A DNA stretch of 64,000 bases from NCBI GenBank assembly GCA_030700025.1, contig JAUYKI010000010.1:16648-80647 (forward strand). The letters run 5' to 3'. The position numbers were made by a program, and so were the translations under genes. Origin of the DNA: a bacterium. GTDB lineage: Bacteria; Patescibacteriota; Minisyncoccia; UBA6257; 02-FULL-45-10c. Below, in pieces: positions 2,938 through 62,447 of this stretch. Below the pieces are notes generated by a model. That model did not search any database. It was not told the DNA's origin and saw only the letters and a list, made by a program, of their open reading frames with translations. Each line of letters opens with the position of its first letter. The first letter of the stretch is position 1.

Positions 2938-3061
2938 ATCCCGTTAGAGACAACTTAAATTTTTATAAAAAGGCAAAGTGGAGTTAAAAAATATAAAACA
3001 TAGATTATTAATTAAATCGGTCTTTTACGACCATCTAAAGATGGTCTGCCTCTAACGGGAT
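2938..3061 (-). repeat. family A inverted-repeat (MITE-like) element E1
   Basis: terminal inverted repeats ATCCCGTTAGAG...CCTCTAACGGGAT, internal 7-bp hairpin next to one end, AT-rich interior; homologous to E2/E3/E4. Confidence 0.6.
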
Positions 3062-12342: not shown

Positions 12343-12939
12343 TTATTTCTTCCCCGTCTTGATAATCTCGTCCACTACTCCATAATCTTTAGCTTCCGCG
12401 GCGGTTAAATGAAAATCTCGGTCGGTATCTCGTTCTATTTTAGCCAGCGGCTGACCGGTATGCTTAGCCAAAATTTGGCTTAACCGCTCCTTAATCCGCA
12501 AGATATGCTTGGCGGCAATTTCAATTTCCACCGCCTGGCCTTCCGCCCCGCCCATTACCTGGTGAAGCAAAATTTCCGCGTTCGGCAAAGCCACCCGCTT
12601 TCCTTTTTTTCCGGACGCCAAAAGCACCGCGCCCATAGAAGCCGCCATGCCCACGCAAATCGTGGAAACGTCCGGCTTGATATATTGCATAGTATCGTAA
12701 ATCGCCATGCCAGCGGTTACCGAACCGCCCGGAGAATTAATATAAAGCTTGATATCCCTTTTCGGATCTTCGTGTTCCAAAAATAAAAGCTGGGCAATTA
12801 CCGTATTGGCAACGCCATCGCTAATCGGGCCCGACAAAAAAACAATCCGTTCTTTTAAAAGACGCGAATAAATATCATAAGCCCGCTCGCCATTTTGGGT
12901 TTTTTCTATAACCGTAGGGATAAGGTATTCGTTTTCCAT
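12343..12939 (-). CDS. clpP: ATP-dependent Clp protease proteolytic subunit (copy 2)
   Basis: 198 aa; [14 protein letters not shown]; its ATG lies inside the inverted repeat of element E2. Confidence 0.9.
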
Positions 12940-13049
12940 CCCGTTAGAGGCAGGTTGCCAAAGGCAACCGTAACTTGGCCGTTTTAATTACAATCGACAT
13001 ATTTATATTTTGAATTTTGATTATCATAATTTATTTTGTTTAGTTGCCT
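12938..13049 (+). repeat. family A inverted-repeat (MITE-like) element E2
   Basis: CCATCCCGTTAGAGGCAGG...TTGCCTCTAACGGGAT; internal GGTTGCC-AAA-GGCAACC hairpin; interior homologous to E4. Confidence 0.65.
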
Positions 13050-13276
13050 CTAACGGGATTCCATTCCTTTACTTTTTGTGCTGTCTTTTGGCAAATTCCT
13101 CTAATTCTTCCTCGGTTACCGGCGCGTCCGCTTCCCGGAATTTTTCAACTTTTTCCGGAGTCATTGCCGGATCAATAGTCGGCTTAACTTCTTTTGGTGA
13201 AAATTTTTCTGGCATAGTTTTATTTTAATTAATTTTTATAATTTCGTAGATTCGTACTCTTTCGTATTTAGTAGCT

Positions 13277-23779: not shown

Positions 23780-24493
23780 CTAAACCGTCCTCTGATACGC
23801 CTCCCAGATATTCAATCCACAAAAAATAATTTCTATGATTATCAGGCTTTGGCCGATGGTAATTAAAATCGGCAGCGGCCAGATTAAAAACGCCAACAAA
23901 AAAATATAACCCAGCACCCAGGAGAAGAATTGGGTGCGCCCGATAACCGAAGCCTGTAAATTATCCAAAGCGAGTTCATCCGTCAAAGCTTTTTCTTCTT
24001 CTTCAGAAAGTCCGCGCAAATAACGGATTAAATAATCTTTTAAAATAATCCAGATTAAAATTATTTCCAATCCCAAAGCCACCATCAGCCACTCAACCGC
24101 CAGAAGCCGGGATTGATAAATAAGAAGGGTGGCGAAGATAACTATGAACCCGTCCCGGATATGATCCAGCCAAGTTCCTAAAATAGTTACATTATCGTTA
24201 TTTCTGGCAGTCGGTCCGTCAATGCCATCCGAAAGAAAAGCTAAAACTAGAAATAATAATTGCCATTTAACCGGATATTCTAAAAGGTTAAGCGTGAATC
24301 CGATGGCAATTAAAATAAATCCCAAATAAGTAATATAATTGGCGATAATTCCAATTTTATCAAAAAGGCTGGTTAAGGGGCGTAAAGCCCAGTCCCGCCA
24401 ATTTTTTTCCAAAGCAGTCAGGAAATCATCCTTTCTTTTAATAACCATGCCCCGGATTTTACGGCGCGGACTTGGCTTCAATTCTGATGTCAT
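23780..24493 (-). CDS. CDP-alcohol phosphatidyltransferase family protein
   Basis: DGIDGPTARNNDNVTILGTWLDHIRD matches D-G-x2-A-R-x8-G-x3-D-x3-D signature; multi-TM. Confidence 0.75.
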   Translation of the reverse strand: MTSELKPSPRRKIRGMVIKRKDDFLTALEKNWRDWALRPLTSLFDKIGIIANYITYLGFILIAIGFTLNLLEYPVKWQLLFLVLAFLSDGIDGPTARNNDNVTILGTWLDHIRDGFIVIFATLLIYQSRLLAVEWLMVALGLEIILIWIILKDYLIRYLRGLSEEEEKALTDELALDNLQASVIGRTQFFSWVLGYIFLLAFLIWPLPILITIGQSLIIIEIIFCGLNIWEAYQRTV

Positions 24494-24539
24494 ATACTAT
24501 ATAGTAGCAATATAATCGGGCTGTAGTATACCGGTAGTA

Positions 24540-24647
24540 TCCCTCACCCTTTGTTATAACGGAGTGTCGTATAGTGGTAGTATACACGCTTCGGGTGTGT
24601 GTGGTCTGGGTTCGATTCCCAGCACTCCGACAAGAAAGGGTGAGGGA
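24540..24647 (+). repeat. family B paired inverted repeat F1 enclosing the inner tRNA
   Basis: TCCCTCACCCTTT (24540-24552) perfectly complementary to AAAGGGTGAGGGA (24635-24647). Confidence 0.65.
24560..24630 (+). tRNA. tRNA-Pro(CGG)-like (inner copy), no encoded CCA
   Basis: acceptor cggagtg/cactccg; anticodon arm cacgc-ttCGGgt-gtgtg; T arm ctggg-ttcgatt-cccag; D arm non-canonical (uaua/uaua), needs tRNAscan-SE. Confidence 0.55.
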
Positions 24648-24710
24648 CGCTTCGGGTGCGTGAGTACTGGGTTCGATTCCCAGCAGCCCGACCAAATTAA
24701 AATTAAATAT

Positions 24711-24782
24711 GCGCGCTTAGCTCAGTGGTAGAGCATCTCTTTTACACAGAGAGGGTCGGGGGTTCGATCCCCTCAGCGCGCA
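24711..24782 (+). tRNA. tRNA-Val(TAC), no encoded CCA
   Basis: acceptor gcgcgct/agcgcgc; D arm gctc-agtggta-gagc; anticodon arm tctct-ttTACac-agaga; T arm ggggg-ttcgatc-ccctc. Confidence 0.85.
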
Positions 24783-24910
24783 CAAAATATATAGCCGCAT
24801 TAGTGGCTATATTTATTATGAGGAGACGAACGGGAAGGGGGTTGACTAAATCACAAAAAAGAGTTACTATCTCTAAAGTTCCTGGCATTCAACTCGAGGA
24901 GGATCAAGCC

Positions 24911-29438: not shown

Positions 29439-29606
29439 GCCGCCGCTCAATCCCCAGCCCTCGCGCTTACTGGAAAGCTGTCTCACGGTTAAATCCTCCC
29501 TTGCCCGTCCGTAGTCTCGCGAAGCGAGACGTAGGCGGGTTTGAATTTTCAAGCTGGCTATTCCCAGCACTGGTGGCAGGATACCATAAAAATAAATCTT
29601 TGTCAA

Positions 29607-29678
29607 ACCCCGTTAGAAGCCGCCCTCGCTAAAGCGAGTGGCTACGGCCACCTAGGGGCGGTCTGCTTCTAACGGGGT
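29607..29678 (-). repeat. family A inverted-repeat element E3 (short, GC-rich interior)
   Basis: CCCCGTTAGAAGC...GCTTCTAACGGGG 13-bp terminal inverted repeats; nested hairpins inside. Confidence 0.55.
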
Positions 29679-30745: not shown

Positions 30746-30823
30746 TCTGATTACGACTAAACCAATCGAAAATTAATTTTCGATTGGTCGCCCGATCAAA
30801 TTTATAATATAAATTTGATTTAG

Positions 30824-30857
30824 GGGCCTATGGTATAGTGGCAGAATGCGGCATTCG
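30824..30857 (+). pseudogene. diverged copy of the tRNA-Ala 5' half
   Basis: gggcctatggtatagtggcagaatgcggcattcg aligns with gggctcatagtaaagtggtattacgcagcattcg of the intact tRNA-Ala 300 bp downstream. Confidence 0.45.
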
Positions 30858-30858
30858 T

Positions 30859-31158
30859 CCCGATGTATAAATTTTGAAATGTTCTATACATATATTTTAA
30901 AATCATATAAAGAAGGTTCCTATTACATAGGTAGTTGTGAGAATGTAGACAAAAGATTACGATTACACAATCAAGGTTTTGTGACATCAACTAAACGATA
31001 TAAGCCATGGCAATTAGTATATAGTGAGAAGTTTGATAATTTAATTGGCGCGCGACGTCGAGAAGCTCAGATAAAATCGTTGAAGAAAAGAAGCGCGGTA
31101 GAAAAACTGATAAGAACATTTCAAAATTTATACATCGTGGATCCGCGATAACTTTGGT
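30859..31158 (+). mobile_element. AT-rich GIY-YIG cassette bounded by 24-bp perfect inverted repeats
   Basis: CGATGTATAAATTTTGAAATGTTC at 30861-30884 and its exact reverse complement at 31114-31137; sits between a tRNA-Ala 5'-half copy and the intact tRNA-Ala. Confidence 0.5.
30879..31151 (+). CDS. small GIY-YIG nuclease (YhbQ/UPF0213-like)
   Basis: YTYILKSYKEGSYYIGSCENVDKRLRLHNQG matches GIY-x10-YIG...R...H...N; about 30% GC; alternative start at 30846. Confidence 0.7.
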   Translation: MFYTYILKSYKEGSYYIGSCENVDKRLRLHNQGFVTSTKRYKPWQLVYSEKFDNLIGARRREAQIKSLKKRSAVEKLIRTFQNLYIVDPR

Positions 31159-31229
31159 GGGCTCATAGTAAAGTGGTATTACGCAGCATTCGCATTGCTG
31201 AGGCTCGGGTTCGATTCCCGATGGGTCCA
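31159..31229 (+). tRNA. tRNA-Ala(CGC), no encoded CCA
   Basis: acceptor gggctca/tgggtcc with G3:U70 identity pair; D arm gtaa-agtggta-ttac; anticodon arm cagca-ttCGCat-tgctg; T arm tcggg-ttcgatt-cccga. Confidence 0.8.
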
Positions 31230-31524
31230 CATGAGTCCACCAAAGTTATCGGGACATTGCCAAGGCGCGAGTTTCCCGACTTTCATTAAAGCTACCGAAA
31301 GAAGTCGAGGATCCTCGATGGCTTTGCCATCGGGACGATTCCGCCTAGGTCCACCACAAACGAATACGCCACCCGGGTGGCGTATTGAATTTGACAAATA
31401 ATTACTAAGGGTGTATTATATGAAATAATTCCTATCTGTATGGATAGGTCGCTCCGCAAGGGGTCAGGCGGTAAGAATCCTGCCGCAACTTAGGGTTCAC
31501 AGCACATTGAAAAGGAGGTGCCGT

Positions 31525-33332: not shown

Positions 33333-34274
33333 TTACTTTTCAATCTTTTCGCTCAGTTGCCGGAAGGACCCTTTGCCATAAGTTTTTTCTACCAGCCGGG
33401 CTATTGGCAAAAGCCGGCCGGTTAAAACTGCTTTCGCGAATAAATCAAAAACTTCTTCCTCCGATTGAAAATCAGGCTGATTTTTTTCATACAATTCCGC
33501 GATTAATTTTTGTAAGTGCCGCCTCTCTTCCGGATAACTATAAAAATGCAGAACCGCTTTTGCTTGTCCGCCTTGTTCAGCAAAAGAAATAAAAGCCACA
33601 TCGCCAATCGAACGGATTAAGTCAATTTTTTCCACTTCATTTACTTCTCCCAAGTCTTTTTGGAGAACCGGCAAGTTTTTAAGCGTTTCTCGGCAAAACC
33701 GCCTGGTCAGCTCTTCCACAATCGCTTCATCCGCGTCTTTAAAATGCGCTTCTTTTTTATCACCGGTTTTATAAAGCTTAAATCCTTCCCGCCGCGGACG
33801 CACAAACTTCGGCCGGCCTTCTTTTGTGGTCGCTTCTACCGATTGGAAAGAATTCAAATGCAGTAATTCATGGACTAATCCTTTGGCAAAAGCCAAATTA
33901 GGCTTAGTCTTCGCGGCATTAAACCAAATGCTCTGCAAAGCGGCATAATAATGCCCGCCGACATTTTCTCCGAAATATTGTTCCGGCAAAATATGGACTT
34001 TGTCTTCGGAAATAACCAGCGGCTGTCCGCCATAGCGCTCCAAAAATTTCGGCAGTTCTTGATTAATAAAATCAATAACCATTCTCTGCTCCAGCGTTTT
34101 TTCCAGCTCTCCTTCTTTTTGTTCCTGTTCTTGATCAAAAAGAAATCCGCCCAATGCCAGAGCTTCCTGTTCCTTATCTTCTTCCAAGCCTACTATCCGG
34201 ACCAATCCGGATTTTCTGTCCCACTTAATTTCCGGGCTGGCTTCGGGCGGTTGTCTTTTAGGAAACTTTTCCAT
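33333..34274 (-). CDS. hypothetical HExxH-motif protein (313 aa)
   Basis: GLVHELLHL motif; ATG embedded in the family B inverted repeat (GGGTGAGGG-ATG). Confidence 0.5.
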   Translation of the reverse strand: MEKFPKRQPPEASPEIKWDRKSGLVRIVGLEEDKEQEALALGGFLFDQEQEQKEGELEKTLEQRMVIDFINQELPKFLERYGGQPLVISEDKVHILPEQYFGENVGGHYYAALQSIWFNAAKTKPNLAFAKGLVHELLHLNSFQSVEATTKEGRPKFVRPRREGFKLYKTGDKKEAHFKDADEAIVEELTRRFCRETLKNLPVLQKDLGEVNEVEKIDLIRSIGDVAFISFAEQGGQAKAVLHFYSYPEERRHLQKLIAELYEKNQPDFQSEEEVFDLFAKAVLTGRLLPIARLVEKTYGKGSFRQLSEKIEK

Positions 34275-34404
34275 CCCTCACCCTTGAAGGGCCTAACGCG
34301 TTTCCGCGTTTTTGTTTCAAGATTAATTTAAGATTAAGCTCAATCGACATTTTAAATAATAAACTAATTATGGGCAATCTCACAGCCCTTCCAAGGTGAG
34401 GGAT
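34273..34404. repeat. family B paired inverted repeat F2
   Basis: ATCCCTCACCCTTG...CAAGGTGAGGGAT flank 105 bp of AT-rich sequence; abuts the xerC stop. Confidence 0.6.
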
Positions 34405-35300
34405 TAATTTCGTCTACGGCCGTGAAATGCCCTATGGACTTCCCGCAATTCTTTATTAGTTAAATGAGTGTAAACCTGGGTGGTGGCAATATTGCTGTGG
34501 CCAAGCATTTCCTGCACCGCCCGCAAATCCGCGCCGTTTACCAGCAAATCCGTGGCAAACTGGTGGCGGAGCTGATGCGGAGTAATTTTTTTGGTAATGC
34601 CCGCTTTCCGCCGGTAAAACTCCACCAGGCGCTGAACCGAGCGCGGAGTAATTTTTCCGATAATTTTCGGATTTGGCCCCTTTGATAAACTAACGAACAT
34701 GACTCCTTCGGCATCACCGCGTTTCGCCAGATAATTTTTCAAAGCGGTTCGGGCGCGATCCGAAATAAACACTATCCGCAATTTTTCGCCCTTGCCCCGG
34801 ACCGTAATTTCTCCGCGGTCCAAATTAAGATAACGGTCTAATTTGCAAAGCTCCGAAAGCCGGAGTCCGGTAGAAAATAAAGTTTCTAAAATCGCTTTGT
34901 CCCGCAAGCCCCGCAAATTATCTGTTTTGGGAGAATTTAAAAATCTTTCCAAATCCGCGTATTCCACAATTTCAATCTGCCGGCGGGGAATTTTCGGAAG
35001 TTCAATTTTATCCGGCGACAAAACTTCGTAATCTTTTTTAATCAGATATTTTAAAAAGTTCCGGATAGCAATTACGTAAAAAGACTGGGTAATTCTTTTT
35101 AACGGCTTGCCGCGCGCCAACTGAAGGCGGAATTGAATGACTTTTTCCGCGGTAATTTCTTCCGGCTTTTTAACTTTTGCGAAAGCTAAAAACGCCTTTA
35201 AATAACGCTCATAATTTTCCCGGGTTTTAATAGAGCGGTTTTTTTCCACTTCTAAATAATCCAGATAGTTTTGCAAAGCATCTTGAACGCTAGCCATGCC
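34404..35300 (-). CDS. xerC: tyrosine recombinase XerC/XerD family
   Basis: C-terminal R..HxxR..Y catalytic region (RHQFATDLL...LGHSNIATTQVYTHL); ORF extends to 35393 but MASVQD is the likely start. Confidence 0.85.
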   Translation of the reverse strand, partial: GMASVQDALQNYLDYLEVEKNRSIKTRENYERYLKAFLAFAKVKKPEEITAEKVIQFRLQLARGKPLKRITQSFYVIAIRNFLKYLIKKDYEVLSPDKIELPKIPRRQIEIVEYADLERFLNSPKTDNLRGLRDKAILETLFSTGLRLSELCKLDRYLNLDRGEITVRGKGEKLRIVFISDRARTALKNYLAKRGDAEGVMFVSLSKGPNPKIIGKITPRSVQRLVEFYRRKAGITKKITPHQLRHQFATDLLVNGADLRAVQEMLGHSNIATTQVYTHLTNKELREVHRAFHGRRRN

Positions 35301-35341
35301 TTTATTATAACCTGTCGCACAATATTTTTTAACCACGCAAA

Positions 35342-35478
35342 ATCCCTCACTTTTGAAGCACCGAAACGTCCAGGCGATTTCCTTAGAGGACACTAATCAT
35401 TTACAAGTAGGGTCTGGAGTTAGAAAACAACGTAGTAAGACAAACGCTTAAAAATCGCAGCGCTTCAAGAGTGAGGGA
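35342..35478. repeat. family B paired inverted repeat F3
   Basis: ATCCCTCACTTTTGAAGC...GCTTCAAGAGTGAGGGA, 17-bp arms. Confidence 0.6.
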
Positions 35479-39234: not shown

Positions 39235-39367
39235 TCCCTCACCCTTGCGAAAGCTAACCCCGCCTTAAGGCGGGGTTTTTGCTTCAACAAAAAATAATTG
39301 CGCTAAAAATTACGATTTCTAATTAAATTATGGATTATATAATAATACTTTCGCAAAGGTGAGGGAT
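39234..39367. repeat. family B paired inverted repeat F4 (contains the pnp terminator)
   Basis: ATCCCTCACCCTTGCGAAAG...CTTTCGCAAAGGTGAGGGAT; interior holds AACCCCGCC-TTAA-GGCGGGGTTTTT. Confidence 0.6.
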
Positions 39368-47126: not shown

Positions 47127-48212
47127 CTACTTAGCGAATGGATTCTTCGCGTTCCTAACCTCAAAGTGAAGATGACACCCGGTTGGGCCGTGAACATTTC
47201 CGGTATTGCCGATATAACCAATGGAATCTCCCTTTAATACATAATCGCCCGGCGAAACAACATTTCTTTGATTGTGGGAATATTTCGTGAAAGTGCCATT
47301 GGAGTGCTCGATTAAAATATAATTTCCGTAACCATCGTTCCAGCCGTTATTGGAAACTGATTCTAAAATTAATCCTTCGGCCGCGGCATAAATCGGCGTT
47401 CCGCAAGCATTGGCAATGTCTACGGCATTATAATTGTGAAGACGGCCCCAATTCCAGCCGGTAGTCGGAATTGCGAAATAACCGGATAAGTCGGGCAAAC
47501 TCGCCAACGATGCCAGCCGGGAACTTTGAACCGGCTTAGCGTCCGGAATAATAATATTAGAACCAACCACCAATTCCTGCCGAGCGCTAAGATTCAGCTG
47601 TAAAATTCTTTGAACATCAATGGAATAAAGATTAGCGATGGATTCCAAAGTTTCACCGGCCTGCACTTGGTGCAACACTCCGGACACCGGTAAAATCATT
47701 ATTTCCTGCCCCGGCGATAATAAGCGCGCTTTTACGCTCGGATTCGCCCAAAAAATCGTATTTAAAGAAATGCCGAAATTCGCGGCAATTTTGGATAAAT
47801 TATCTCCTGATTGGACTTTATAAATCAACAATCCATCCCTCGTCGGCAAAACATTACTCAGCGGATTGCCCGAATTCAGCAAGGCGTCGCTATCCACGAT
47901 AATAAAATTAATTCCGCCCTCGCCGCTGAATGACCCGCTATCTATCGGGAAAAAACTTTCCACGCTGGCGGTATTGCCGACAACCAGAATATTTTCCGCG
48001 CCGAAAGCCAGCGAATAAAAGCGTTCGCTGTCTATGGGTTGCCGAGAGTAGAACAAAAGGAGTAGATTAGTAACAGACGCAACCAAAACTAAAACAACCG
48101 GCATAGCGGTTGTCAGATTCTCTCTAAACCAGGATAAAATTTTACCCAATTTATTTTTCAACCCTATCATTATAACAATGAGCCGTCCGAAACTCAATCC
48201 CACACATAACAA
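47127..48212 (-). CDS. LysM-domain M23-family peptidase
   Basis: two LysM repeats (YKVQSGDNLSKIA, HQVQAGETLESIA); C-terminal M23 motifs (HNQRNVVSPGDYV, GCHLHFEV). Confidence 0.8.
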   Translation of the reverse strand: MLCVGLSFGRLIVIMIGLKNKLGKILSWFRENLTTAMPVVLVLVASVTNLLLLFYSRQPIDSERFYSLAFGAENILVVGNTASVESFFPIDSGSFSGEGGINFIIVDSDALLNSGNPLSNVLPTRDGLLIYKVQSGDNLSKIAANFGISLNTIFWANPSVKARLLSPGQEIMILPVSGVLHQVQAGETLESIANLYSIDVQRILQLNLSARQELVVGSNIIIPDAKPVQSSRLASLASLPDLSGYFAIPTTGWNWGRLHNYNAVDIANACGTPIYAAAEGLILESVSNNGWNDGYGNYILIEHSNGTFTKYSHNQRNVVSPGDYVLKGDSIGYIGNTGNVHGPTGCHLHFEVRNAKNPFAK

Positions 48213-48310
48213 AGACCGTAAGATAATTGAACTATAACCATGATATTAAAATCAAAATGTCGCATTAAATTAAAAACTGAAGAATTGCGAAAAACTTCGC
48301 AGTCTTTGTT

Positions 48311-50110
48311 ATGGGTGGGATCAATCCATTAAATAATTTATCCGAACAGCAAAAAAAAGCTGTCCAGCATCCCGCCGGGCCGATTTTGATTGCCGCCGGC
48401 GCCGGATCCGGAAAAACCCACACCCTCACCAGCCGTTTGGCGCATTTATTAAAATCCGGGGTTCGGCCGGAAAATATTATTGCCATTACTTTTACCAATA
48501 AGGCGGCCAAAGAAATGCGGAGCCGGGTTAATGGTCAGGGGTCAATAGTTAATAGTCTGTTCATCGGGACCTTCCACTCGCTCGGCGTTCAAATTTTGAA
48601 AAATGAAGCTGGGCTGGTTAATCGAAGCCGGAATTTTACTATTTTTGACGAAGACGATTCCCAAAGCCTGCTCAAAAATATTTTGAAAGAGTTAAATCTT
48701 GCCAAAGAAAAATTCAATCCCATGAAAGTTTCCAACCGGATTTCCCAGATTAAAAATGAGGTTTTAGACGATGATGAATTAAAGCCAGAGAATAGTTATG
48801 AAAAAATTATTTTATCGGTTTACGCGAAATACGAAGAAGCGCTCAAACAATATAATGCTTTTGATTTTGACGATTTAATTGAAAAGGTGGTGCGGATTTT
48901 CCGGAATCATCCGGAGATTTTAGAAAAATACCAAAACCGCTGGCAGCAAATCTTGGTGGATGAGTATCAGGACGTTAACACCAGCCAATATCTTTTGATA
49001 AGAATGCTGGCGCAAAAACACCAAAATCTTTTTGTTATCGGCGACGACGCTCAAAGCATTTATTCTTTCCGCGGTTCCGATTTCCGCAATTTCCTGAATT
49101 TTGACACCGACTGGCCAACCGCCGCCGTAATTAAACTGGAAGAAAATTACCGCTCCACTAAAAATATCATAGCTTCGGCTTCGGCCCTGATTCAAAATAA
49201 TAAGCTGCAAAAGCCGAAAGGCCTTTGGACCCAGAATCAAGAAGGATCGCTAATCCGCGTCAGCGCTTACCAGAGTCCGGAGGAAGAAGCCTGGAGCATT
49301 GCCGAAAAAATTCGGGAATTGCTCAAGGCCGGAGAAAATATCAAAGATATCGCGATTCTTTACCGCACCAATGCCCAGTCCCGCGCCCTGGAACAGGCAA
49401 TGATCCAAAACCAAATTCCTTATGAAATTTTCGGGGGGTTAAAATTCTATGCCCGGAAAGAAATCAAGGACTTAATCGCCGGTTTGCGATACGCCACTAA
49501 CCCCAAAGACAGCCTAAGCGCGGAACGGATAGTGAAGAATTTCACCAAAACCCAAAGCAAAGCGCTACTGGAAGAACTCCCTCGATTAGCCGGAGAATTA
49601 TCCATAATTGAGCTATTAAATTATATTTTGACCAACACGAATTATTTTGAATACCTGGAGACCCACTTTAAAAATCCGGATGAACGGCGGGAAAACATTA
49701 AAGAATTGATTCATTTCGCTTCCGGATTTAAAAACGCCCAGGAATTTTTGGAACAAATCGCCTTGGTATCCAGCCTGGATGGCCGGCCCAAGCTGGAAGA
49801 AAATGCCGTTAAGTTTATGTCTATTCATTTAGCCAAGGGGCTGGAATTTAATAATATTTTTATTGCCGGCGCCAACGAAGGATTGTTGCCGCACGAAAGA
49901 TCGCTGGGCAACAATGACGACTTGGAAGAAGAACGGCGTTTAATGTATGTGGCCATGACCCGCGCCAAAAAAAATCTTTTTATCGGCTTTTATGATTTGC
50001 CGTCCCGTTTTTTAGGAGAATTGCCGCCGGAACTGATTGAATTCCAAAAGACCACCAGTTACGGAACCGAGAACCGAGATTGGGACGACGAGACAATTTA
50101 TCTGGAATAA
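48311..50110 (+). CDS. pcrA: UvrD/PcrA-family DNA helicase
   Basis: AGAGSGKTHTLTSR Walker A, DEYQDVN motif II, helicase motifs through VI; short 599-aa form. Confidence 0.85.
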   Translation: MGGINPLNNLSEQQKKAVQHPAGPILIAAGAGSGKTHTLTSRLAHLLKSGVRPENIIAITFTNKAAKEMRSRVNGQGSIVNSLFIGTFHSLGVQILKNEAGLVNRSRNFTIFDEDDSQSLLKNILKELNLAKEKFNPMKVSNRISQIKNEVLDDDELKPENSYEKIILSVYAKYEEALKQYNAFDFDDLIEKVVRIFRNHPEILEKYQNRWQQILVDEYQDVNTSQYLLIRMLAQKHQNLFVIGDDAQSIYSFRGSDFRNFLNFDTDWPTAAVIKLEENYRSTKNIIASASALIQNNKLQKPKGLWTQNQEGSLIRVSAYQSPEEEAWSIAEKIRELLKAGENIKDIAILYRTNAQSRALEQAMIQNQIPYEIFGGLKFYARKEIKDLIAGLRYATNPKDSLSAERIVKNFTKTQSKALLEELPRLAGELSIIELLNYILTNTNYFEYLETHFKNPDERRENIKELIHFASGFKNAQEFLEQIALVSSLDGRPKLEENAVKFMSIHLAKGLEFNNIFIAGANEGLLPHERSLGNNDDLEEERRLMYVAMTRAKKNLFIGFYDLPSRFLGELPPELIEFQKTTSYGTENRDWDDETIYLE

Positions 50111-61244: not shown

Positions 61245-61363
61245 ATCCCGTTAGAGGCAACTAAACCTAAAATATTATGCCAATCAAAATTAAAAATATA
61301 AAAAGTCGGAAATATTTAATCGGCCTGCTACGGTCGCCTATGGCGACCTGCCTCTAACGGGAT
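61245..61363 (-). repeat. family A inverted-repeat (MITE-like) element E4
   Basis: ATCCCGTTAGAGGCAAC...CCTGCCTCTAACGGGAT; hairpin GGTCGCC-TAT-GGCGACC; interior homologous to E2; right inverted repeat contains the ATG of the 61362 gene. Confidence 0.65.
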
Positions 61364-62447
61364 GGACTGGAAACGAATTTTAAAAATATTTTTTGGAATT
61401 TTAACGCCCATTGCCGTAATTTGGGGGGGTTATTATATTTGGCAGACCCTGAACGCTCCGCCGGCCATTCCGGAACCTAACAATATTCCGACCCAAACCT
61501 TAGTGGATATTCCGACCACGCCATCTTTTTCTACGGTCATGGAAACCCCGATTTTTGATTATTGGATTAACTCTAAAACCGGAGCGGTTTATTATTTGGA
61601 TTTGTCCGGCCAGGTTTTTAAAGCCGGGGAATCCGACAAACCGGTTAATTCCCAAACCCTGAATAATCTGAACGGCATTCAAATTTCCGCGGACGGCACC
61701 TTGGCGCTGGCAAAATTTAATTATCCCGCGCTGGCGACCTTCAGTATTTTTAATACCGTTACCAATGCCTGGCAGCCGCTTCCGGAAGGAACTTCCGCCG
61801 CCGCCTGGGCCGCCAGCACTTCCCAGCTGGTTTATTTAGACGGCAAAGCCGGCAGTTTAAAAATTCTTAATGTTACCTCGCAAAAAACCCAGGAAGTAAT
61901 TAAATTAAATCAAAAAGACATAAAACTATATTGGGTTAATCCGTCAACGATTCTGGTCCAAATCTCCGCGCCATCCATAGAAATGCCGTCCTCCCTCTGG
62001 AGCTTAGATTTAAAAACCAAGCTGTTAAAGCCCCTATTCAGGGATGAGATCGGACTGGCCCTAAACTGGTCCCTGCTGGGAAATTACGGGCTGAAACTGG
62101 TTAATGTCAGCCGGGTTCCGCGAGTCTCATTGATTAATCAGGCCGGCGGTATTTTAAAAGACTTGTCTTTTGTTACTCTGCCGGAAAAATGCGCCTTTAG
62201 CGAAAGTAAAATTTATTGCGGAGTGCCTAGATTTATCCGCGACGGCATCCAACTACCCGATGATTATTATAAAAAAGCCGTCTATTTCCAAGACGACATT
62301 TATTCCATTGATTTAATATCCGGAGAATCTGCCTTATTGTTAAACGGAGACGAAATTTTAATTGATGCCTATCGCCTTTCTTTAGGCAACGGAAAATTGT
62401 ATTTCCTCAATCGCTACGATAACAAACTCTATAATTTGTCCTTATAA
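61362..62447 (+). CDS. hypothetical membrane-anchored protein (361 aa)
   Basis: N-terminal TM (ILKIFFGILTPIAVIWGGYYIW); beta-rich composition. Confidence 0.5.
   Translation: MDWKRILKIFFGILTPIAVIWGGYYIWQTLNAPPAIPEPNNIPTQTLVDIPTTPSFSTVMETPIFDYWINSKTGAVYYLDLSGQVFKAGESDKPVNSQTLNNLNGIQISADGTLALAKFNYPALATFSIFNTVTNAWQPLPEGTSAAAWAASTSQLVYLDGKAGSLKILNVTSQKTQEVIKLNQKDIKLYWVNPSTILVQISAPSIEMPSSLWSLDLKTKLLKPLFRDEIGLALNWSLLGNYGLKLVNVSRVPRVSLINQAGGILKDLSFVTLPEKCAFSESKIYCGVPRFIRDGIQLPDDYYKKAVYFQDDIYSIDLISGESALLLNGDEILIDAYRLSLGNGKLYFLNRYDNKLYNLSL

What the first reader, a model, noticed from the sequence alone, without database searches (positions are those of the whole stretch)
24517..24694. tRNA-Pro-like gene split by an inverted-repeat element that carries a second complete tRNA-Pro-like gene
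The 3' end of a tRNA (anticodon arm ACGC-TTCGGGT-GCGT, T arm, acceptor CAGCCCG-A-CCA) lies at 24648-24694 with no acceptor 5' strand or D arm next to it. The exact 7-bp complement CGGGCTG, followed by a D arm paralogous to the inner tRNA's, sits 125 bp upstream at 24517-24541. The 105 bp between them is a complete paralogous tRNA (24560-24630, anticodon CGG) enclosed by a perfect 13-bp family-B inverted repeat (24540-24552 with 24635-24647). This is either a tRNA interrupted at the D/anticodon junction by a tRNA-carrying insertion, an unconventional intron-like arrangement in which the hairpin could bring the two halves together in the transcript, or a decayed duplicate. The two copies share the same odd D-arm architecture (UAUA/UAUA stem with a 3-nt linker), which argues they are genuine paralogs rather than chance matches.
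Basis: seen in the sequence. Interest (0 to 1): 0.85.

Follow-up and report, generated by a model that had tools for sequence, protein, structure and literature searches.

The report
tRNA gene nested inside broken tRNA gene
A proline tRNA gene in this ultra-small (Patescibacteria) bacterium has been cut in two by a 108-base hairpin-ended insert that carries its own complete spare proline tRNA gene, and the same "spare-part" invasion recurs in related genomes and in a neighbouring alanine tRNA gene, where the insert also encodes a small nuclease.

Summary
24517-24540 is the 5' part and 24647-24694 the 3' part of one tRNA-Pro(CGG) gene (7/7 acceptor pairs; perfect cloverleaf when joined). Between them lie a perfect 13-bp inverted repeat (24540-24552 / 24635-24647) and a complete, different tRNA-Pro(CGG) (24560-24630).

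It is not an oddity of one genome. At the orthologous locus in about 32 related Patescibacteria, 6-7 carry complete nests. These sit at different positions in the D/anticodon region and use two arm families. About 7 more carry only a decaying 5' or 3' remnant.

The outer gene matches the allele that the nearest un-nested relatives have. The inner gene is a foreign allele. Some loci are doubly nested.

A second nest lies 6 kb away (tRNA-Ala, 30824-31356). Its insert also holds a 90-aa GIY-YIG nuclease gene, as do homologous nests in two other genomes.

No group I/II intron model and no bulge-helix-bulge motif fits.

Best reading: a mobile, inverted-repeat-bounded cassette that can occupy a tRNA gene because it brings a replacement. 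The inner gene works and the outer halves are a young relic, co-transcribed as leader and trailer. I found no published description.

A functional two-piece outer tRNA is not excluded here.

The parts
24487..24516 (+). Promoter-like site directly upstream of the outer 5' part. It is the only one that could serve the inner tRNA.
   Evidence: ATGTCA-18-TATAAT, 10/12. The same upstream sequence precedes the intact tRNA in L002 and the nest remnant in L001.
24517..24540 (+). Outer tRNA-Pro(CGG), 5' part: acceptor 5' strand, U8/A9 and the whole D arm (nt 1-25). C24541-C24542 can serve as nt 26-27.
   Evidence: It is 23/24 identical to the uninterrupted tRNA of relative L002.
24540..24552 (+). Left arm of the insert (TCCCTCACCCTTT), a member of the 'family B' inverted-repeat ends.
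   Evidence: Perfect 13-bp complement of 24635-24647. GGTGAGGGA occurs 6 times in the window against 0.22 expected, always as inverted pairs.
24553..24559 (+). AT-rich spacer (GTTATAA) between the left arm and the inner tRNA.
   Evidence: Comparable AT-rich 4-8-nt spacers occur in all related nests.
24560..24630 (+). Inner, complete tRNA-Pro(CGG). It is allele 'a' (CGGAGTG / CACTCCG) with no encoded CCA, and is presumably the working gene.
   Evidence: ARAGORN. Rfam RF00005 55.8 bits, 1-71/71. The same allele is the sole tRNA-Pro at this locus in L010, L032 and L034.
24631..24634 (+). Spacer CAAG. The flank CAAGAAA is identical to the 3' flank of the inner tRNA in L029.
24635..24647 (+). Right arm of the insert (AAAGGGTGAGGGA).
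24647..24694 (+). Outer tRNA-Pro(CGG), 3' part: anticodon arm with an intact CGG loop, variable loop, T arm, acceptor 3' strand CAGCCCG, A73 and encoded CCA.
   Evidence: It is 87% identical to the inner 3' part. Its acceptor is 7/7 complementary to 24517-24523 and differs from the inner gene by compensated changes.
24711..24783 (+). tRNA-Val(TAC), the next gene of the same presumed transcript.
   Evidence: It is also next to the tRNA-Pro in L001.
24789..24812 (+). Terminator-like hairpin plus T run that ends the tRNA transcription unit.
30824..30857 (+). Sister case: outer tRNA-Ala(CGC) piece 1. It runs from the acceptor 5' strand to nt 35 of the anticodon loop (...GGCATTCG|).
   Evidence: It is homologous to the 5' remnant in L014.
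30879..31151 (+). 90-aa GIY-YIG nuclease gene inside the tRNA-Ala insert. It is bracketed by a perfect 25-nt inverted repeat (30861-30885 / 31113-31137).
   Evidence: Pfam PF01541, E=1.2e-13. Nearest solved structures are UPF0213 proteins and SLX1. Inverted repeat. Homologues sit in the same kind of nest in L062 and L063.
31146..31251 (+). Inner complete tRNA-Ala(CGC) (31159-31230) with 13-nt arms CGATAACTTTGGT / ACCAAAGTTATCG that extend its acceptor stem.
   Evidence: The arms covary in L063.
31255..31356 (+). Outer tRNA-Ala pieces 2 (31255-31273) and 3 (31336-31356, ending in CCA), separated by a further 62-nt TCCC...GGGA insert (31274-31335) in the T loop.
   Evidence: Removing the inserts restores the loops TTCGCAT and TTCGATT exactly, but the D and T stems have decayed.
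34274..34403 (.). Intergenic 130-bp module with the same family-B ends (TCCCTCACCCTTG...CAAGGTGAGGGA).
39235..39366 (.). Second intergenic family-B module (132 bp), homologous to 34274-34403, with covarying inner arms.

Best explanation
The resident tRNA-Pro(CGG) gene (allele 'b', CGGGCTG/CAGCCCG) has been split between its D arm and anticodon arm. The insert is a 104-108-bp cassette bounded by a 13-bp inverted repeat, and it carries a complete foreign allele of the same tRNA (allele 'a', CGGAGTG/CACTCCG).

Because the cassette brings a replacement, it can occupy a tRNA gene without needing to be spliced out. The whole unit is transcribed from the resident promoter: outer 5' part, arm, inner tRNA, arm, outer 3' part, then tRNA-Val. 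RNase P and 3' processing release the inner tRNA, which does the decoding. The outer halves are leader and trailer, a still-intact relic.

Over time the relic decays or is deleted and the inner gene becomes the new resident, which can be invaded again. The cassette belongs to a class of small TCCC...GGGA-ended inverted-repeat modules of this clade. Some of these carry a minimal GIY-YIG nuclease gene, which probably makes the break that starts insertion or homing.

Shown: the anatomy, the recurrence, outer = local allele and inner = foreign allele, the decay series, and the nuclease inside sister nests.

Inferred: mobility of the cassette, the nuclease's role, RNA processing, and non-function of the outer halves.
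For: Anatomy and non-chance.

The organism is a Patescibacteria bacterium near Cand. Harrisonbacteria.

Orthologous locus next to the CDP-alcohol phosphatidyltransferase gene in about 32 distinct relatives:
- Complete nests: L005, L006, L028, L029, L052, plus L042 cut by the contig end.
- 5' remnant only: L001, L020, L026, L038.
- 3' remnant only: L009, L013, L044.
- In all 6 complete nests the outer acceptor strands pair 7/7 with each other and differ from the inner gene.

Insertion points differ. The window and L001 are cut at nt 25/28, and the others within nt 31-35 of the anticodon arm.

On a neighbour-protein tree the outer allele equals the allele of the nearest un-nested relatives:
- L002 is 'b' next to the window.
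- L003 is 'c' next to L005.
- L035 is 'e' next to L028.
The inner allele 'a' of the window is the sole gene in a distant clade (L010, L032, L034).

L002 (neighbour protein 85% identical) reads ...GGTAGTAC|GCGCG straight through the window's insertion point.

Double layers occur in L029 and L063, and a tri-split outer gene in L005.

Sister nests:
- tRNA-Ala in the window carries a GIY-YIG ORF.
- Homologous nuclease + tRNA-Ala nests occur at the same anticodon-loop position in L062 and L063, for the CGC and TGC isoacceptors respectively.
- GIY-YIG inserts that duplicate only part of the tRNA occur in L044 (Pro, T loop) and L056 (Arg, D/anticodon junction).

Only one promoter-like site exists, upstream of the outer 5' part, and one terminator after tRNA-Val.

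No intron model matches.
Against: - The tRNA-Pro insert itself encodes no nuclease, and none of the 6-7 Pro nests does. The nuclease link is therefore by analogy with the Ala, Arg and T-loop cases.
- The GIY-YIG protein is a bare 90-aa SLX1/UPF0213-like catalytic domain with no DNA-binding domain, unlike proven homing endonucleases.
- The window's outer halves show no decay at all.
- L005's three outer pieces are 100% identical to a working tRNA of another species, although its sister L020 has a decayed remnant. This could mean selection rather than youth.
- The arm sequences are shared with non-tRNA intergenic modules and are conserved across genomes about 50-60% identical in protein. This is more than a neutral transposon end would explain and hints at an RNA or protein-binding role.
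- Junctions are not uniform: 2 nt short here, +2 nt or exact elsewhere.
Confidence: 0.62

Rival explanations
1. Fragmented but functional outer tRNA, the tRNA counterpart of RNase III-cleaved rRNA intervening sequences. After RNase P/Z remove the inner tRNA, and perhaps RNase III trims the 13-bp arm helix, the two outer pieces stay together through the 7-bp acceptor stem and the arm stub. They would act as a second, two-piece tRNA-Pro(CGG). A variant is that the pieces are ligated, for example by an RtcB-type ligase.
For: - In this window every stem and loop of the outer gene is intact, including the CGG anticodon arm, A73 and an encoded CCA.
- The insertion lies outside the anticodon arm.
- The predicted fold of 24517-24694 forms the outer acceptor stem, the arm helix and the inner tRNA stems, at -84.8 kcal/mol and z = -5.4.
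- Short non-intron insertions in CPR rRNA genes are thought to be RNase III-type intervening sequences (PMC11270868).
- L005's outer pieces are also perfect.
Against: - The inner gene has the same anticodon, so nothing requires the outer one.
- In L006, L028 and L029 the outer anticodon loop is replaced by TGAAGGT. In L052 the 3' strand of the anticodon stem is missing.
- L001, the closest relative with the same insertion, has lost the 3' half and its 5' half is decaying.
- The outer tRNA-Ala in this same window has decayed stems.
- An extra helix at nt 26 has no precedent in working tRNAs (own knowledge).
Confidence: 0.1
2. The outer tRNA-like shell and the arm helix are kept by selection as a processing or stability scaffold for the inner tRNA. 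The leader and trailer pair and present a tRNA-like handle to RNase P, the CCA-adding enzyme or RNase III. They are neither a mere relic nor a decoder.
For: - Acceptor, D and T arms of the outer gene stay intact in all six complete nests, even where the anticodon loop is destroyed.
- The arms keep complementarity while their sequences differ between loci. Examples are GAGAT/ATCTC, GAAGTT/AACTTC and GAAAT/ATTTC, and T-A to C-G in the Ala arms.
- The same arm motifs bracket intergenic regions and abut start codons, which suggests a general RNA-level role.
Against: - More than half of the related loci have a single tRNA-Pro with no shell and no arms.
- Shells are lost piecemeal in L001, L009, L020, L026 and L038.
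- The pattern on the tree looks like invasion and loss, not conservation.
Confidence: 0.1
3. Purely local rearrangement without a mobile element. This could be a tandem duplication of tRNA-Pro followed by deletions, or template switching at hairpins. It would happen to leave a 5' piece, a whole copy and a 3' piece.
For: Direct repeats of 24 and 46 nt with 43- and 61-nt spacing are what a duplication would leave. tRNA-gene DNA is hairpin-rich.
Against: - A local duplication does not explain the perfect inverted repeat exactly at both junctions.
- It does not explain the membership of those arms in genome-wide repeat families.
- It does not explain an inner allele that is foreign to the clade while the outer allele is the local one.
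- It does not explain the same architecture with a nuclease gene in tRNA-Ala nests of three genomes.
Confidence: 0.08
4. Assembly artefact: a chimeric metagenome assembly of two strain variants of the tRNA-Pro locus.
For: The window comes from a metagenome-assembled genome. Contigs of relatives break inside this tRNA (L002).
Against: The same nested architecture, with different sequences, appears in independent assemblies from different studies and samples: NCBI MAGs, JGI, ENA and Logan. A chimera would not create perfect inverted repeats at both junctions.
Confidence: 0.01

Closest known systems
Free-standing GIY-YIG homing endonucleases with 'intronless homing', especially phage T4 SegB in the tRNA gene cluster (PMC2330249; also PMC13096335 on SegB-driven amplification of tRNA loci)
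   Same: A GIY-YIG nuclease gene sits among or in tRNA genes without a self-splicing intron. It is inherited together with adjacent tRNA sequence. Presence/absence polymorphism is seen between relatives.
   Different: - Here the element sits inside the target tRNA gene and carries a whole replacement tRNA (or a part of one).
- It is bounded by inverted repeats.
- The nuclease is a 90-aa SLX1/UPF0213-like core without a DNA-binding domain.
- The tRNA-Pro insert under study has no nuclease gene at all.
- No cleavage activity has been shown.
Integrative elements (phages, islands) that insert into tRNA genes and restore the gene with their own copy of its 3' part
   Same: The principle of 'insert into a tRNA gene and bring the missing piece'. 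A displaced fragment of the resident tRNA is left behind as a repeat. The anticodon and T loops are preferred points.
   Different: - Those elements are kilobases long, use a tyrosine integrase, and duplicate only the 3' segment as a direct repeat.
- Here the insert is 108 bp with no integrase, and carries a whole tRNA.
- It leaves both a 5' and a 3' fragment of the resident gene and has inverted-repeat ends.
Bacterial rRNA intervening sequences (IVS) removed by RNase III without ligation, and the short non-intron or GIY-YIG-encoding insertions in CPR rRNA genes (PMC11270868)
   Same: - Small horizontally spread inserts in structural-RNA genes of reduced-genome bacteria.
- They are closed by an inverted-repeat stem and are not group I/II introns.
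- In CPR, all GIY-YIG proteins in rRNA insertions lie in such non-intron inserts.
   Different: An IVS leaves a working fragmented rRNA and carries no replacement gene. Here the host RNA is a tRNA, most insertions destroy the anticodon arm, and function is rescued by the cargo tRNA. RNase III cleavage is untested.
Archaeal disrupted tRNA genes: non-canonical and multiple introns, split and tri-split tRNAs (Nanoarchaeum, Caldivirga), and the mobile-element model of tRNA disruption (PMC3293823, PMC4033280)
   Same: - tRNA genes are interrupted at non-canonical positions, including the D/anticodon junction.
- GC-rich complementary sequences flank the halves.
- Multi-piece genes occur (L005 is tri-split).
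- A mobile-element origin has been proposed.
   Different: - The organism is bacterial.
- There is no bulge-helix-bulge motif.
- The halves are adjacent and enclose a second complete tRNA.
- The outer genes decay in relatives, which argues against obligatory splicing.
Group I introns in tRNA genes of Patescibacteria (PMC13011429)
   Same: The same phylum, with tRNA genes interrupted and missed by standard annotation.
   Different: No group I core is detectable at E<=1. The insert is only 104-108 nt, it lies at nt 25/28, and its cargo is a tRNA. That paper does not mention tRNA-Pro, nested genes or GIY-YIG.
Prokaryotic MITEs such as Correia/ERIC-type elements (review PMC10969869)
   Same: Elements of about 75-130 bp with terminal inverted repeats, multiple copies per genome, intergenic, carrying promoter- or terminator-like parts. 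Transcripts would fold into long hairpins.
   Different: - No target-site duplication and no known transposase.
- The end motifs are conserved across quite divergent genomes.
- Some copies carry a tRNA or a GIY-YIG gene and sit inside tRNA genes.

Membership tests
Group I (or II) intron in a bacterial tRNA gene | Recognisable catalytic core (Rfam group I/II models) | tested here: not met
   cmscan of 24450-24800 and 30780-31400 at E<=1 returns only tRNA and weak noise. No intron family matches. The gathering-threshold scans of the window and 14 loci agree.
Group I (or II) intron in a bacterial tRNA gene | Insertion in the anticodon loop, and intron length of at least ~200 nt | tested here: not met
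   The insert is 104-108 nt and lies between nt 25 and 28, at the D/anticodon junction.
Archaeal-type protein-spliced tRNA intron / split tRNA | Bulge-helix-bulge (3-nt bulge, 4-bp helix, 3-nt bulge) at the exon-intron boundaries | tested here: not met
   The arms form an uninterrupted 13-bp helix that abuts the D stem and anticodon stem, with no bulges.
Archaeal-type protein-spliced tRNA intron / split tRNA | Excision restores a functional tRNA in all carriers | tested here: not met
   Restoration works in the window. In L006, L028 and L029 it leaves the loop CACG+TGAAGGT with no CGG. In L052 the 3' strand of the anticodon stem is missing.
Archaeal-type protein-spliced tRNA intron / split tRNA | Presence of a splicing endonuclease (EndA) and ligase in the genome | not testable with these tools
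   Only 64 kb of the genome is available. The genes present are bacterial: FtsH, PNPase, S1 and the CCA-adding enzyme.
RNase III-type intervening sequence (IVS) | Insert closed by a long inverted-repeat stem at its base | tested here: met
   A 13/13-bp stem here, and 12-15 bp in the related nests.
RNase III-type intervening sequence (IVS) | Cleavage by RNase III without ligation, and the fragmented host RNA remains functional | not testable with these tools
   This needs RNA end-mapping. Comparative decay of the outer genes argues against retained function in most loci.
tRNA-targeting integrative element (tyrosine integrase) | An integrase gene in the element, and attL/attR direct repeats made of the tRNA 3' segment only | tested here: not met
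   The 108-bp insert has no ORF. Both 5' and 3' fragments of the resident gene are present. The only tyrosine recombinase in the window (34404-35393) is XerC/D-like and lies 10 kb away.
MITE | Terminal inverted repeats and several copies of the family in the genome | tested here: met
   GGTGAGGGA occurs 6 times as three inverted pairs against 0.22 expected. Family A CCCGTTAGA occurs 8 times as four pairs against 0.43 expected.
MITE | Target-site duplication and a cognate transposase | tested here: not met
   There is no duplication at 24540/24647, where the outer gene is 2 nt short. The Ala inserts are exact. No transposase was seen in the window.
Homing-endonuclease element (intronless homing) | A nuclease gene of a homing-endonuclease family inside the element | tested here: not met
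   This is not met for the tRNA-Pro insert: it has no ORF, and tblastn finds no GIY-YIG in any Pro nest. It is met for the sister tRNA-Ala nest (PF01541, E=1.2e-13) and for L062, L063, L044 and L056.
Homing-endonuclease element (intronless homing) | Presence/absence polymorphism at the same site among close relatives, with the same junctions in carriers | tested here: met
   The window and L001 share the junction GTAT|CCCTCA. L002, which is 88% identical to L001 in the neighbour protein, is uninterrupted there.
Homing-endonuclease element (intronless homing) | Site-specific cleavage of the empty allele by the encoded nuclease | not testable with these tools
   This needs biochemistry. The protein is a bare SLX1/UPF0213-like domain, so structure-specific cutting is equally possible.

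The most novel reading that the evidence does not exclude
The outer tRNA-Pro(CGG) of this window is not dead. After the inner tRNA is cut out, its two pieces stay paired through the 7-bp acceptor stem and the stub of the 13-bp arm helix. They would be CCA-ended, charged by ProRS and used in translation. That would be a naturally fragmented (two-piece) bacterial tRNA, the tRNA counterpart of fragmented 23S rRNA. One transcript would then yield two different tRNA-Pro molecules.
Probability: 0.08. Interest if true: 0.92.

Novelty: new variant of a known kind. Interest (0 to 1): 0.74.

Why it matters
It shows a third way for a selfish insert to live inside a gene the cell needs. The first is self-splicing (introns, inteins). 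The second is restoring one end of the gene (integrative islands). Here the insert carries a whole spare copy, which is feasible only because tRNAs are tiny.

This would explain several things:
- why tRNA alleles at one locus are replaced horizontally among Patescibacteria;
- why tRNA halves and 'Russian-doll' layers litter these minimal genomes;
- why standard tRNA finders report only the inner gene.

It gives a concrete, testable role to the very common minimal SLX1/UPF0213-type GIY-YIG proteins of bacteria. It links them to the non-intron insertions already noted in CPR rRNA genes.

It also offers a living bacterial model for how tRNA genes become split or interrupted, a long-debated question for archaeal split and intron-bearing tRNAs. 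Finally, it provides natural examples of a tRNA embedded in a tRNA scaffold.

Tried and rejected
- Chance match: rejected. The partial copies are unique in the window and absent in shuffles.
- Group I/II intron: no Rfam hit at gathering score or at E<=1.
- Bulge-helix-bulge intron: the arms are a continuous helix.
- Integrative island: no integrase, and the insert is only 108 bp. The only recombinase is XerC/D-like and 10 kb away.
- Assembly chimera: rejected by recurrence in independent assemblies.
- Nuclease gene inside any tRNA-Pro nest: tblastn with three GIY-YIG proteins found none. Hits came only from the T-loop insert of L044/L045, the Arg case L056/L060 and the Ala nest.
- L005's ~300-nt second insert: it is not a known RNA family and holds no convincing ORF.
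- Empty-site allele downstream of L002: I looked through homologues of the 134-165-aa downstream protein. L054 starts only in tRNA-Val, so the 3' side of the un-nested allele was not seen.
- Other tRNAs of the window (Lys, Gly, Arg, Val, Ile): none has partial copies.
- Literature: six full-text searches found no description of a tRNA gene nested in a tRNA gene, or of GIY-YIG plus replacement-tRNA elements.
- The genome-contig scan did not return the window's own genome, so a second tRNA-Pro(CGG) elsewhere in it could not be checked.
Full report
WHAT IS THERE

Reading 24480-24720 on the + strand gives the following order:
- a promoter-like site, ATGTCA-18-TATAAT, at 24487-24516;
- CGGGCTG-TA-GTAT-ACCGGTA-GTAT at 24517-24540, which is tRNA positions 1-25;
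- TCCCTCACCCTTT at 24540-24552;
- GTTATAA;
- a complete tRNA-Pro(CGG) at 24560-24630 (ARAGORN; Rfam tRNA 55.8 bits over the full model);
- CAAG;
- AAAGGGTGAGGGA at 24635-24647;
- ACGC-TTCGGGT-GCGT-G-AGTA-CTGGG-TTCGATT-CCCAG-CAGCCCG-A-CCA at 24647-24694;
- 16 nt of spacer, then tRNA-Val(TAC) at 24711-24783;
- a terminator-like hairpin at 24789-24812.

The two 13-mers are perfectly complementary. The two flanking pieces are partial direct copies of the inner gene, 24 nt at 79% and 46 nt at 87%. They differ from it in the acceptor stem by compensated changes: CGGGCTG/CAGCCCG against CGGAGTG/CACTCCG.

Joined at 24542|24647, the flanking pieces give a flawless 74-nt tRNA-Pro(CGG) cloverleaf with A73 and CCA.

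Neither partial copy has any other near-match in the 64-kb window or in shuffled windows. Two small corrections apply: the 3' part starts at 24647, and the D arm is the ordinary G·U-flanked 4-bp stem that all tRNA-Pro(CGG) genes of this clade have.

CONTEXT

The window is bacterial. It encodes FtsH, PNPase, ribosomal protein S1, H+-pyrophosphatase and a CCA-adding enzyme. The divergent neighbour gene is a CDP-alcohol phosphatidyltransferase at 23780-24493. Its nearest named homologues are from Candidatus Harrisonbacteria and other Patescibacteria.

Only one promoter-like site precedes the whole tRNA block. The inner tRNA must therefore be transcribed through the outer 5' part. As RNA, 24517-24694 is predicted to form the outer acceptor stem, the 13-bp arm helix and the inner tRNA stems, at -84.8 kcal/mol with z = -5.4.

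COMPARATIVE EVIDENCE

Using the neighbour protein, I fetched the orthologous locus from species-representative genomes, JGI/ENA metagenomes and Logan assemblies. tRNA-Pro(CGG) sits in the same divergent position in nearly all of them. Reading the flanks and searching for partial tRNA copies shows that the nested arrangement recurs.

Complete nests, each with a 5' part, arm, complete tRNA-Pro(CGG), complementary arm and 3' part:

| Locus | Source | Outer | Inner | Note |
|---|---|---|---|---|
| L005 | Harrisonbacteria JACROC010000004 | CGGACTG | CGGGCTG | tri-split, see below |
| L006 | JAJYZL010000091 | CGGACTG | CGGAGTG | |
| L028 | — | CGGTCTG | CGGACTG | |
| L029 | — | CGGTCTG | CGGAGTG | older layer, see below |
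| L052 | — | CGGGCTG | CGGGCCG | |
| L042 | — | — | — | cut by the contig end |

In all six complete cases the two outer acceptor strands pair 7/7 with each other and differ from the inner gene.

Other loci keep only remnants:
- A decaying 5' remnant plus arm: L001, L020, L026, L038.
- A 3' remnant: L009, and a distant one in L013.

About 18 loci have a single clean gene.

Insertion points differ. The window and L001 are cut between nt 25 and 28. The other nests are cut within nt 31-35 of the anticodon arm.

Two arm families are used:
- a C-rich one: CCCTCACCCTTT here, and CCTCACACCAAC, CCCCCACACCAAA and CCCCCCACACCAAA elsewhere;
- G(T/C)CCCGTTAGA(G/A)… in L005, L020, L029 and L042.

Within each family the distal arm bases differ between loci but stay complementary.

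L029 carries a further, decayed 5' half plus arm upstream of its outer 5' half, which is a second, older layer. L005's outer gene is in three pieces, because a second ~300-nt inverted-repeat-bounded insert sits at the variable-loop/T-stem junction.

WHO IS RESIDENT AND WHO IS INVADER

I built a neighbour-joining tree of the neighbour protein. On it, the outer allele equals the allele of the nearest un-nested relatives:
- L002 carries CGGGCTG next to the window.
- L003 carries the CGGACTG-TA type next to L005.
- L035 carries CGGTCTG next to L028.

The window's inner allele (CGGAGTG…AGTGGTA) is the sole gene at this locus in a distant clade (L010, L032, L034). It is also the inner gene of L006, L029 and L042.

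L032 and L034 (single 'a') are sisters of L029 (outer 'e', inner 'a'). That is the expected end state once the shell has been lost.

Among the window's closest relatives (neighbour proteins 84-88% identical):
- L001 has the same junction (GTAT|CCCTCA…) but has lost the right arm and the 3' half. Its 5' remnant has 4-5 changes.
- L002 reads …GGTAGTAC|GCGCG straight through the insertion point.

This is a presence/absence polymorphism plus a decay series. It is not a conserved gene structure.

A SECOND NEST IN THE SAME WINDOW, WITH A NUCLEASE

A scan for inverted repeats led to 30824-31356. The order there is:
- an outer tRNA-Ala(CGC) that stops after nt 35 of its anticodon loop (…GGCATTCG|);
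- TCC;
- a perfect 25-nt inverted repeat enclosing a 90-aa ORF at 30879-31151;
- a 13-nt arm;
- a complete inner tRNA-Ala(CGC) at 31159-31230;
- the complementary arm;
- GGA;
- the rest of the outer gene (CAT-TGCCA…), itself interrupted in the T loop by a 62-nt TCCC…GGGA insert;
- an end at …TAGGTCC-A-CCA (31356).

Removing the inserts restores the loops TTCGCAT and TTCGATT exactly. ARAGORN then calls tRNA-Ala(cgc), but the D and T stems have decayed.

The ORF is a GIY-YIG domain (PF01541, E=1.2e-13). It is closest to UPF0213 proteins and to SLX1 among solved structures. That is the 'Slx-1 cluster' of PMC1564403.

Its homologues sit in the same architecture:
- L062 has an outer tRNA-Ala 5' part, ATTCG|TCCCGAT, the nuclease, an arm and an inner tRNA-Ala(CGC).
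- L063 (Wildermuthbacteria) has the same for tRNA-Ala(TGC). It has the same insertion point, covarying arms, and an additional older 3' fragment.
- L014 has a tRNA-Ala 5' remnant followed by a CCCGTTAGA arm and the inner gene.

GIY-YIG inserts that duplicate only part of the tRNA also exist:
- L044/L045: tRNA-Pro T loop, with an 18-nt duplication of the 3' end.
- L056/L060: tRNA-Arg(GCG) at the D/anticodon junction, with the 5' part duplicated.

THE ARMS BELONG TO GENOME-WIDE FAMILIES

GGTGAGGGA occurs six times in the window against 0.22 expected, as three inverted pairs. One pair is around the tRNA-Pro. The other two are homologous intergenic modules of ~130 bp at 34274-34403 and 39235-39366.

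CCCGTTAGA is the arm core of the other nest type in relatives. It occurs eight times against 0.43 expected, as four inverted pairs (2940/3059, 12940/13057, 29609/29676, 61247/61361). It also occurs as pairs in other genomes.

All these modules, and all inserts in the Ala nest, begin TCCC and end GGGA. Several abut start codons. I cannot say whether they are transposable units, RNase III-type stems or both.

MOST LIKELY MECHANISM

Shown:
- The resident tRNA-Pro gene is interrupted by an inverted-repeat-bounded cassette carrying a foreign allele of the same tRNA.
- This has happened repeatedly, at several positions and for at least two amino-acid specificities.
- Outer genes decay in relatives.
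- Some cassettes encode a GIY-YIG nuclease.

Inferred:
- The cassette is mobile.
- A nuclease break, sequence- or structure-specific in tRNA-gene DNA, starts insertion, or homing from a filled allele.
- The cargo tRNA makes insertion into the tRNA gene harmless.
- The inner tRNA is released by RNase P and 3' processing from a transcript started at the resident promoter.
- The outer halves are a recent relic.
- The inner gene then becomes the resident and can be invaded again, which would explain the layers in L029, L062 and L063.

The tRNA-Pro cassette of the window has no nuclease gene. It is either a nuclease-less derivative or is moved in trans.

RIVALS

A functional two-piece or spliced outer tRNA cannot be excluded for this window. 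Everything is intact here, and the cut lies outside the anticodon arm.

Several observations argue against it:
- the redundancy with the inner gene;
- the destroyed anticodon loops of L006, L028, L029 and L052;
- the decay in L001;
- the decayed outer tRNA-Ala 6 kb away.

A cis-acting scaffold role for the shell and arms would explain the well-kept acceptor, D and T arms and the arm covariation. It does not explain why most relatives do without them.

Local duplication and assembly error do not explain the inverted repeats, the foreign inner allele or the recurrence.

COMPARISON WITH WHAT IS KNOWN

The arrangement works most like intronless homing by free-standing GIY-YIG endonucleases (T4 SegB in the tRNA cluster, PMC2330249). 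It also works like integrative elements that repair the tRNA gene they split. It differs from both in nesting a whole replacement gene inside the target, in its 108-bp size and in its inverted-repeat ends.

It resembles rRNA intervening sequences and the non-intron, sometimes GIY-YIG-encoding, insertions of CPR rRNA genes (PMC11270868).

It is not a group I intron like those recently described in Patescibacteria tRNA genes (PMC13011429). It is not an archaeal BHB intron.

Six full-text searches found no report of a tRNA gene nested in a tRNA gene. That is a limited search and not proof of absence.

VERDICT

The feature is real, recurrent and apparently undescribed. It is a new variant of nuclease-associated mobile elements that colonise tRNA genes by carrying a spare.

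Confidence in the 'invading cassette plus relic' reading is about 0.6. The nuclease-driven step is less certain. Interest is 0.74.

Noticed in passing
window 30824-31356 (+): A second nested tRNA. The outer tRNA-Ala(CGC) is split in the anticodon loop after nt 35. The insert holds a 90-aa GIY-YIG gene (30879-31151, inside a perfect 25-nt inverted repeat at 30861-30885 / 31113-31137) and a complete inner tRNA-Ala(CGC) at 31159-31230 with 13-nt arms. The outer gene has a further 62-nt insert in its T loop (31274-31335) and decayed D and T stems.
   Followed up: yes
window 2939-3059, 12939-13058, 29607-29678, 61246-61361: 'Family A' intergenic inverted-repeat modules of 74-126 bp, with ends (A)TCCCGTTAGAG…CTCTAACGGGA(T). 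CCCGTTAGA occurs 8 times against 0.43 expected. Each module has a GC hairpin next to one arm and an AT-rich remainder, and they occur in either orientation. The same 10-mer forms the arms of tRNA nests in other genomes (L005, L020, L029, L042, L014).
   Followed up: partly
window 34274-34403, 39235-39366; also 48197-48321 and a solo motif at 35465-35477: 'Family B' intergenic modules of ~130 bp: TCCCTCACC-C-TTG, a covarying inner arm, CTAAC, a terminator-like hairpin, an AT-rich stretch, then CAAGGTGAGGGA. A related pair reads ATCCCACACATAAC…GTTATGGGTGGGAT. One module abuts a XerC/D-like tyrosine recombinase gene (34404-35393).
   Followed up: partly
window 61353-61364, 34272-34283 (-), 12937-12949 (-), 29604-29617 (-): The outer end of a module arm directly abuts a start codon: CTCTAACGGG|ATG, GGGTGAGGG|ATG, and A|TTG. 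This leaves no room for a separate Shine-Dalgarno spacer. It suggests an RNA-level role such as a processing stem, leaderless mRNA or translational control.
   Followed up: no
window 31231-31243: Right after the inner tRNA-Ala (…TGGGTCC-A) comes a second copy of the acceptor 3' strand plus ACCA (C-ATGAGTCC-ACCA). With the leader it forms a 21-bp helix (95%) with 31146-31166.
   Followed up: no
L005 2415-2869 (-): The outer tRNA-Pro is in three pieces, separated by two inverted-repeat-bounded inserts. One carries a tRNA-Pro. The other is ~300 nt with arms GGACCTTATTTTAATA / TATTAAAATAAGGTCC and has no Rfam match. All three pieces are 100% identical to the intact tRNA of L007.
   Followed up: partly
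L029 2179-2400 (-); L063 1-500 (+); L062 1341-1500 (+): 'Russian-doll' layers. These are remnants of an older outer half and arm lying outside the current outer gene: a type-1 arm upstream in L029, an extra 3' fragment in L063, and the arm remnant CTCTGGT before the outer gene in L062.
   Followed up: partly
L044 186-580 (-) vs L043; L056 925-1263 (+), L060: GIY-YIG ORFs are inserted in tRNA genes with only partial duplication of the tRNA. In L044 the tRNA-Pro T loop carries an 18-nt 3'-end duplication. In L056 the tRNA-Arg(GCG) is cut after the D arm, and the 5' part and 9 nt of upstream flank are duplicated.
   Followed up: partly
L061 2382-2900 (+): tRNA-Leu(TAA) is preceded by two ~100-nt tandem repeats that each start with the first 10 nt of the tRNA. 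About 250 nt downstream there is a copy of its last 19 nt (ACTCCCGCCCCGAGCACCA).
   Followed up: no
L009 2795-2840 (-); L026 2200-2270 (-); L062 ~1430-1480: Dead tRNA halves carry small GC-rich palindromic inserts. L009 has 29 nt (TCCGCC…GGCGGA) in the T loop. L026 has CTGCCTGCGCAGGCAGG in the D loop. L062 has a 49-nt insert in the anticodon stem. This suggests a high rate of hairpin insertions into tRNA-like DNA.
   Followed up: no
L006, L009, L028, L029 (3' junction of the nests): The outer anticodon loop is replaced by the same heptamer TGAAGGT in four loci, although their arms belong to two different families. This is unexplained.
   Followed up: no
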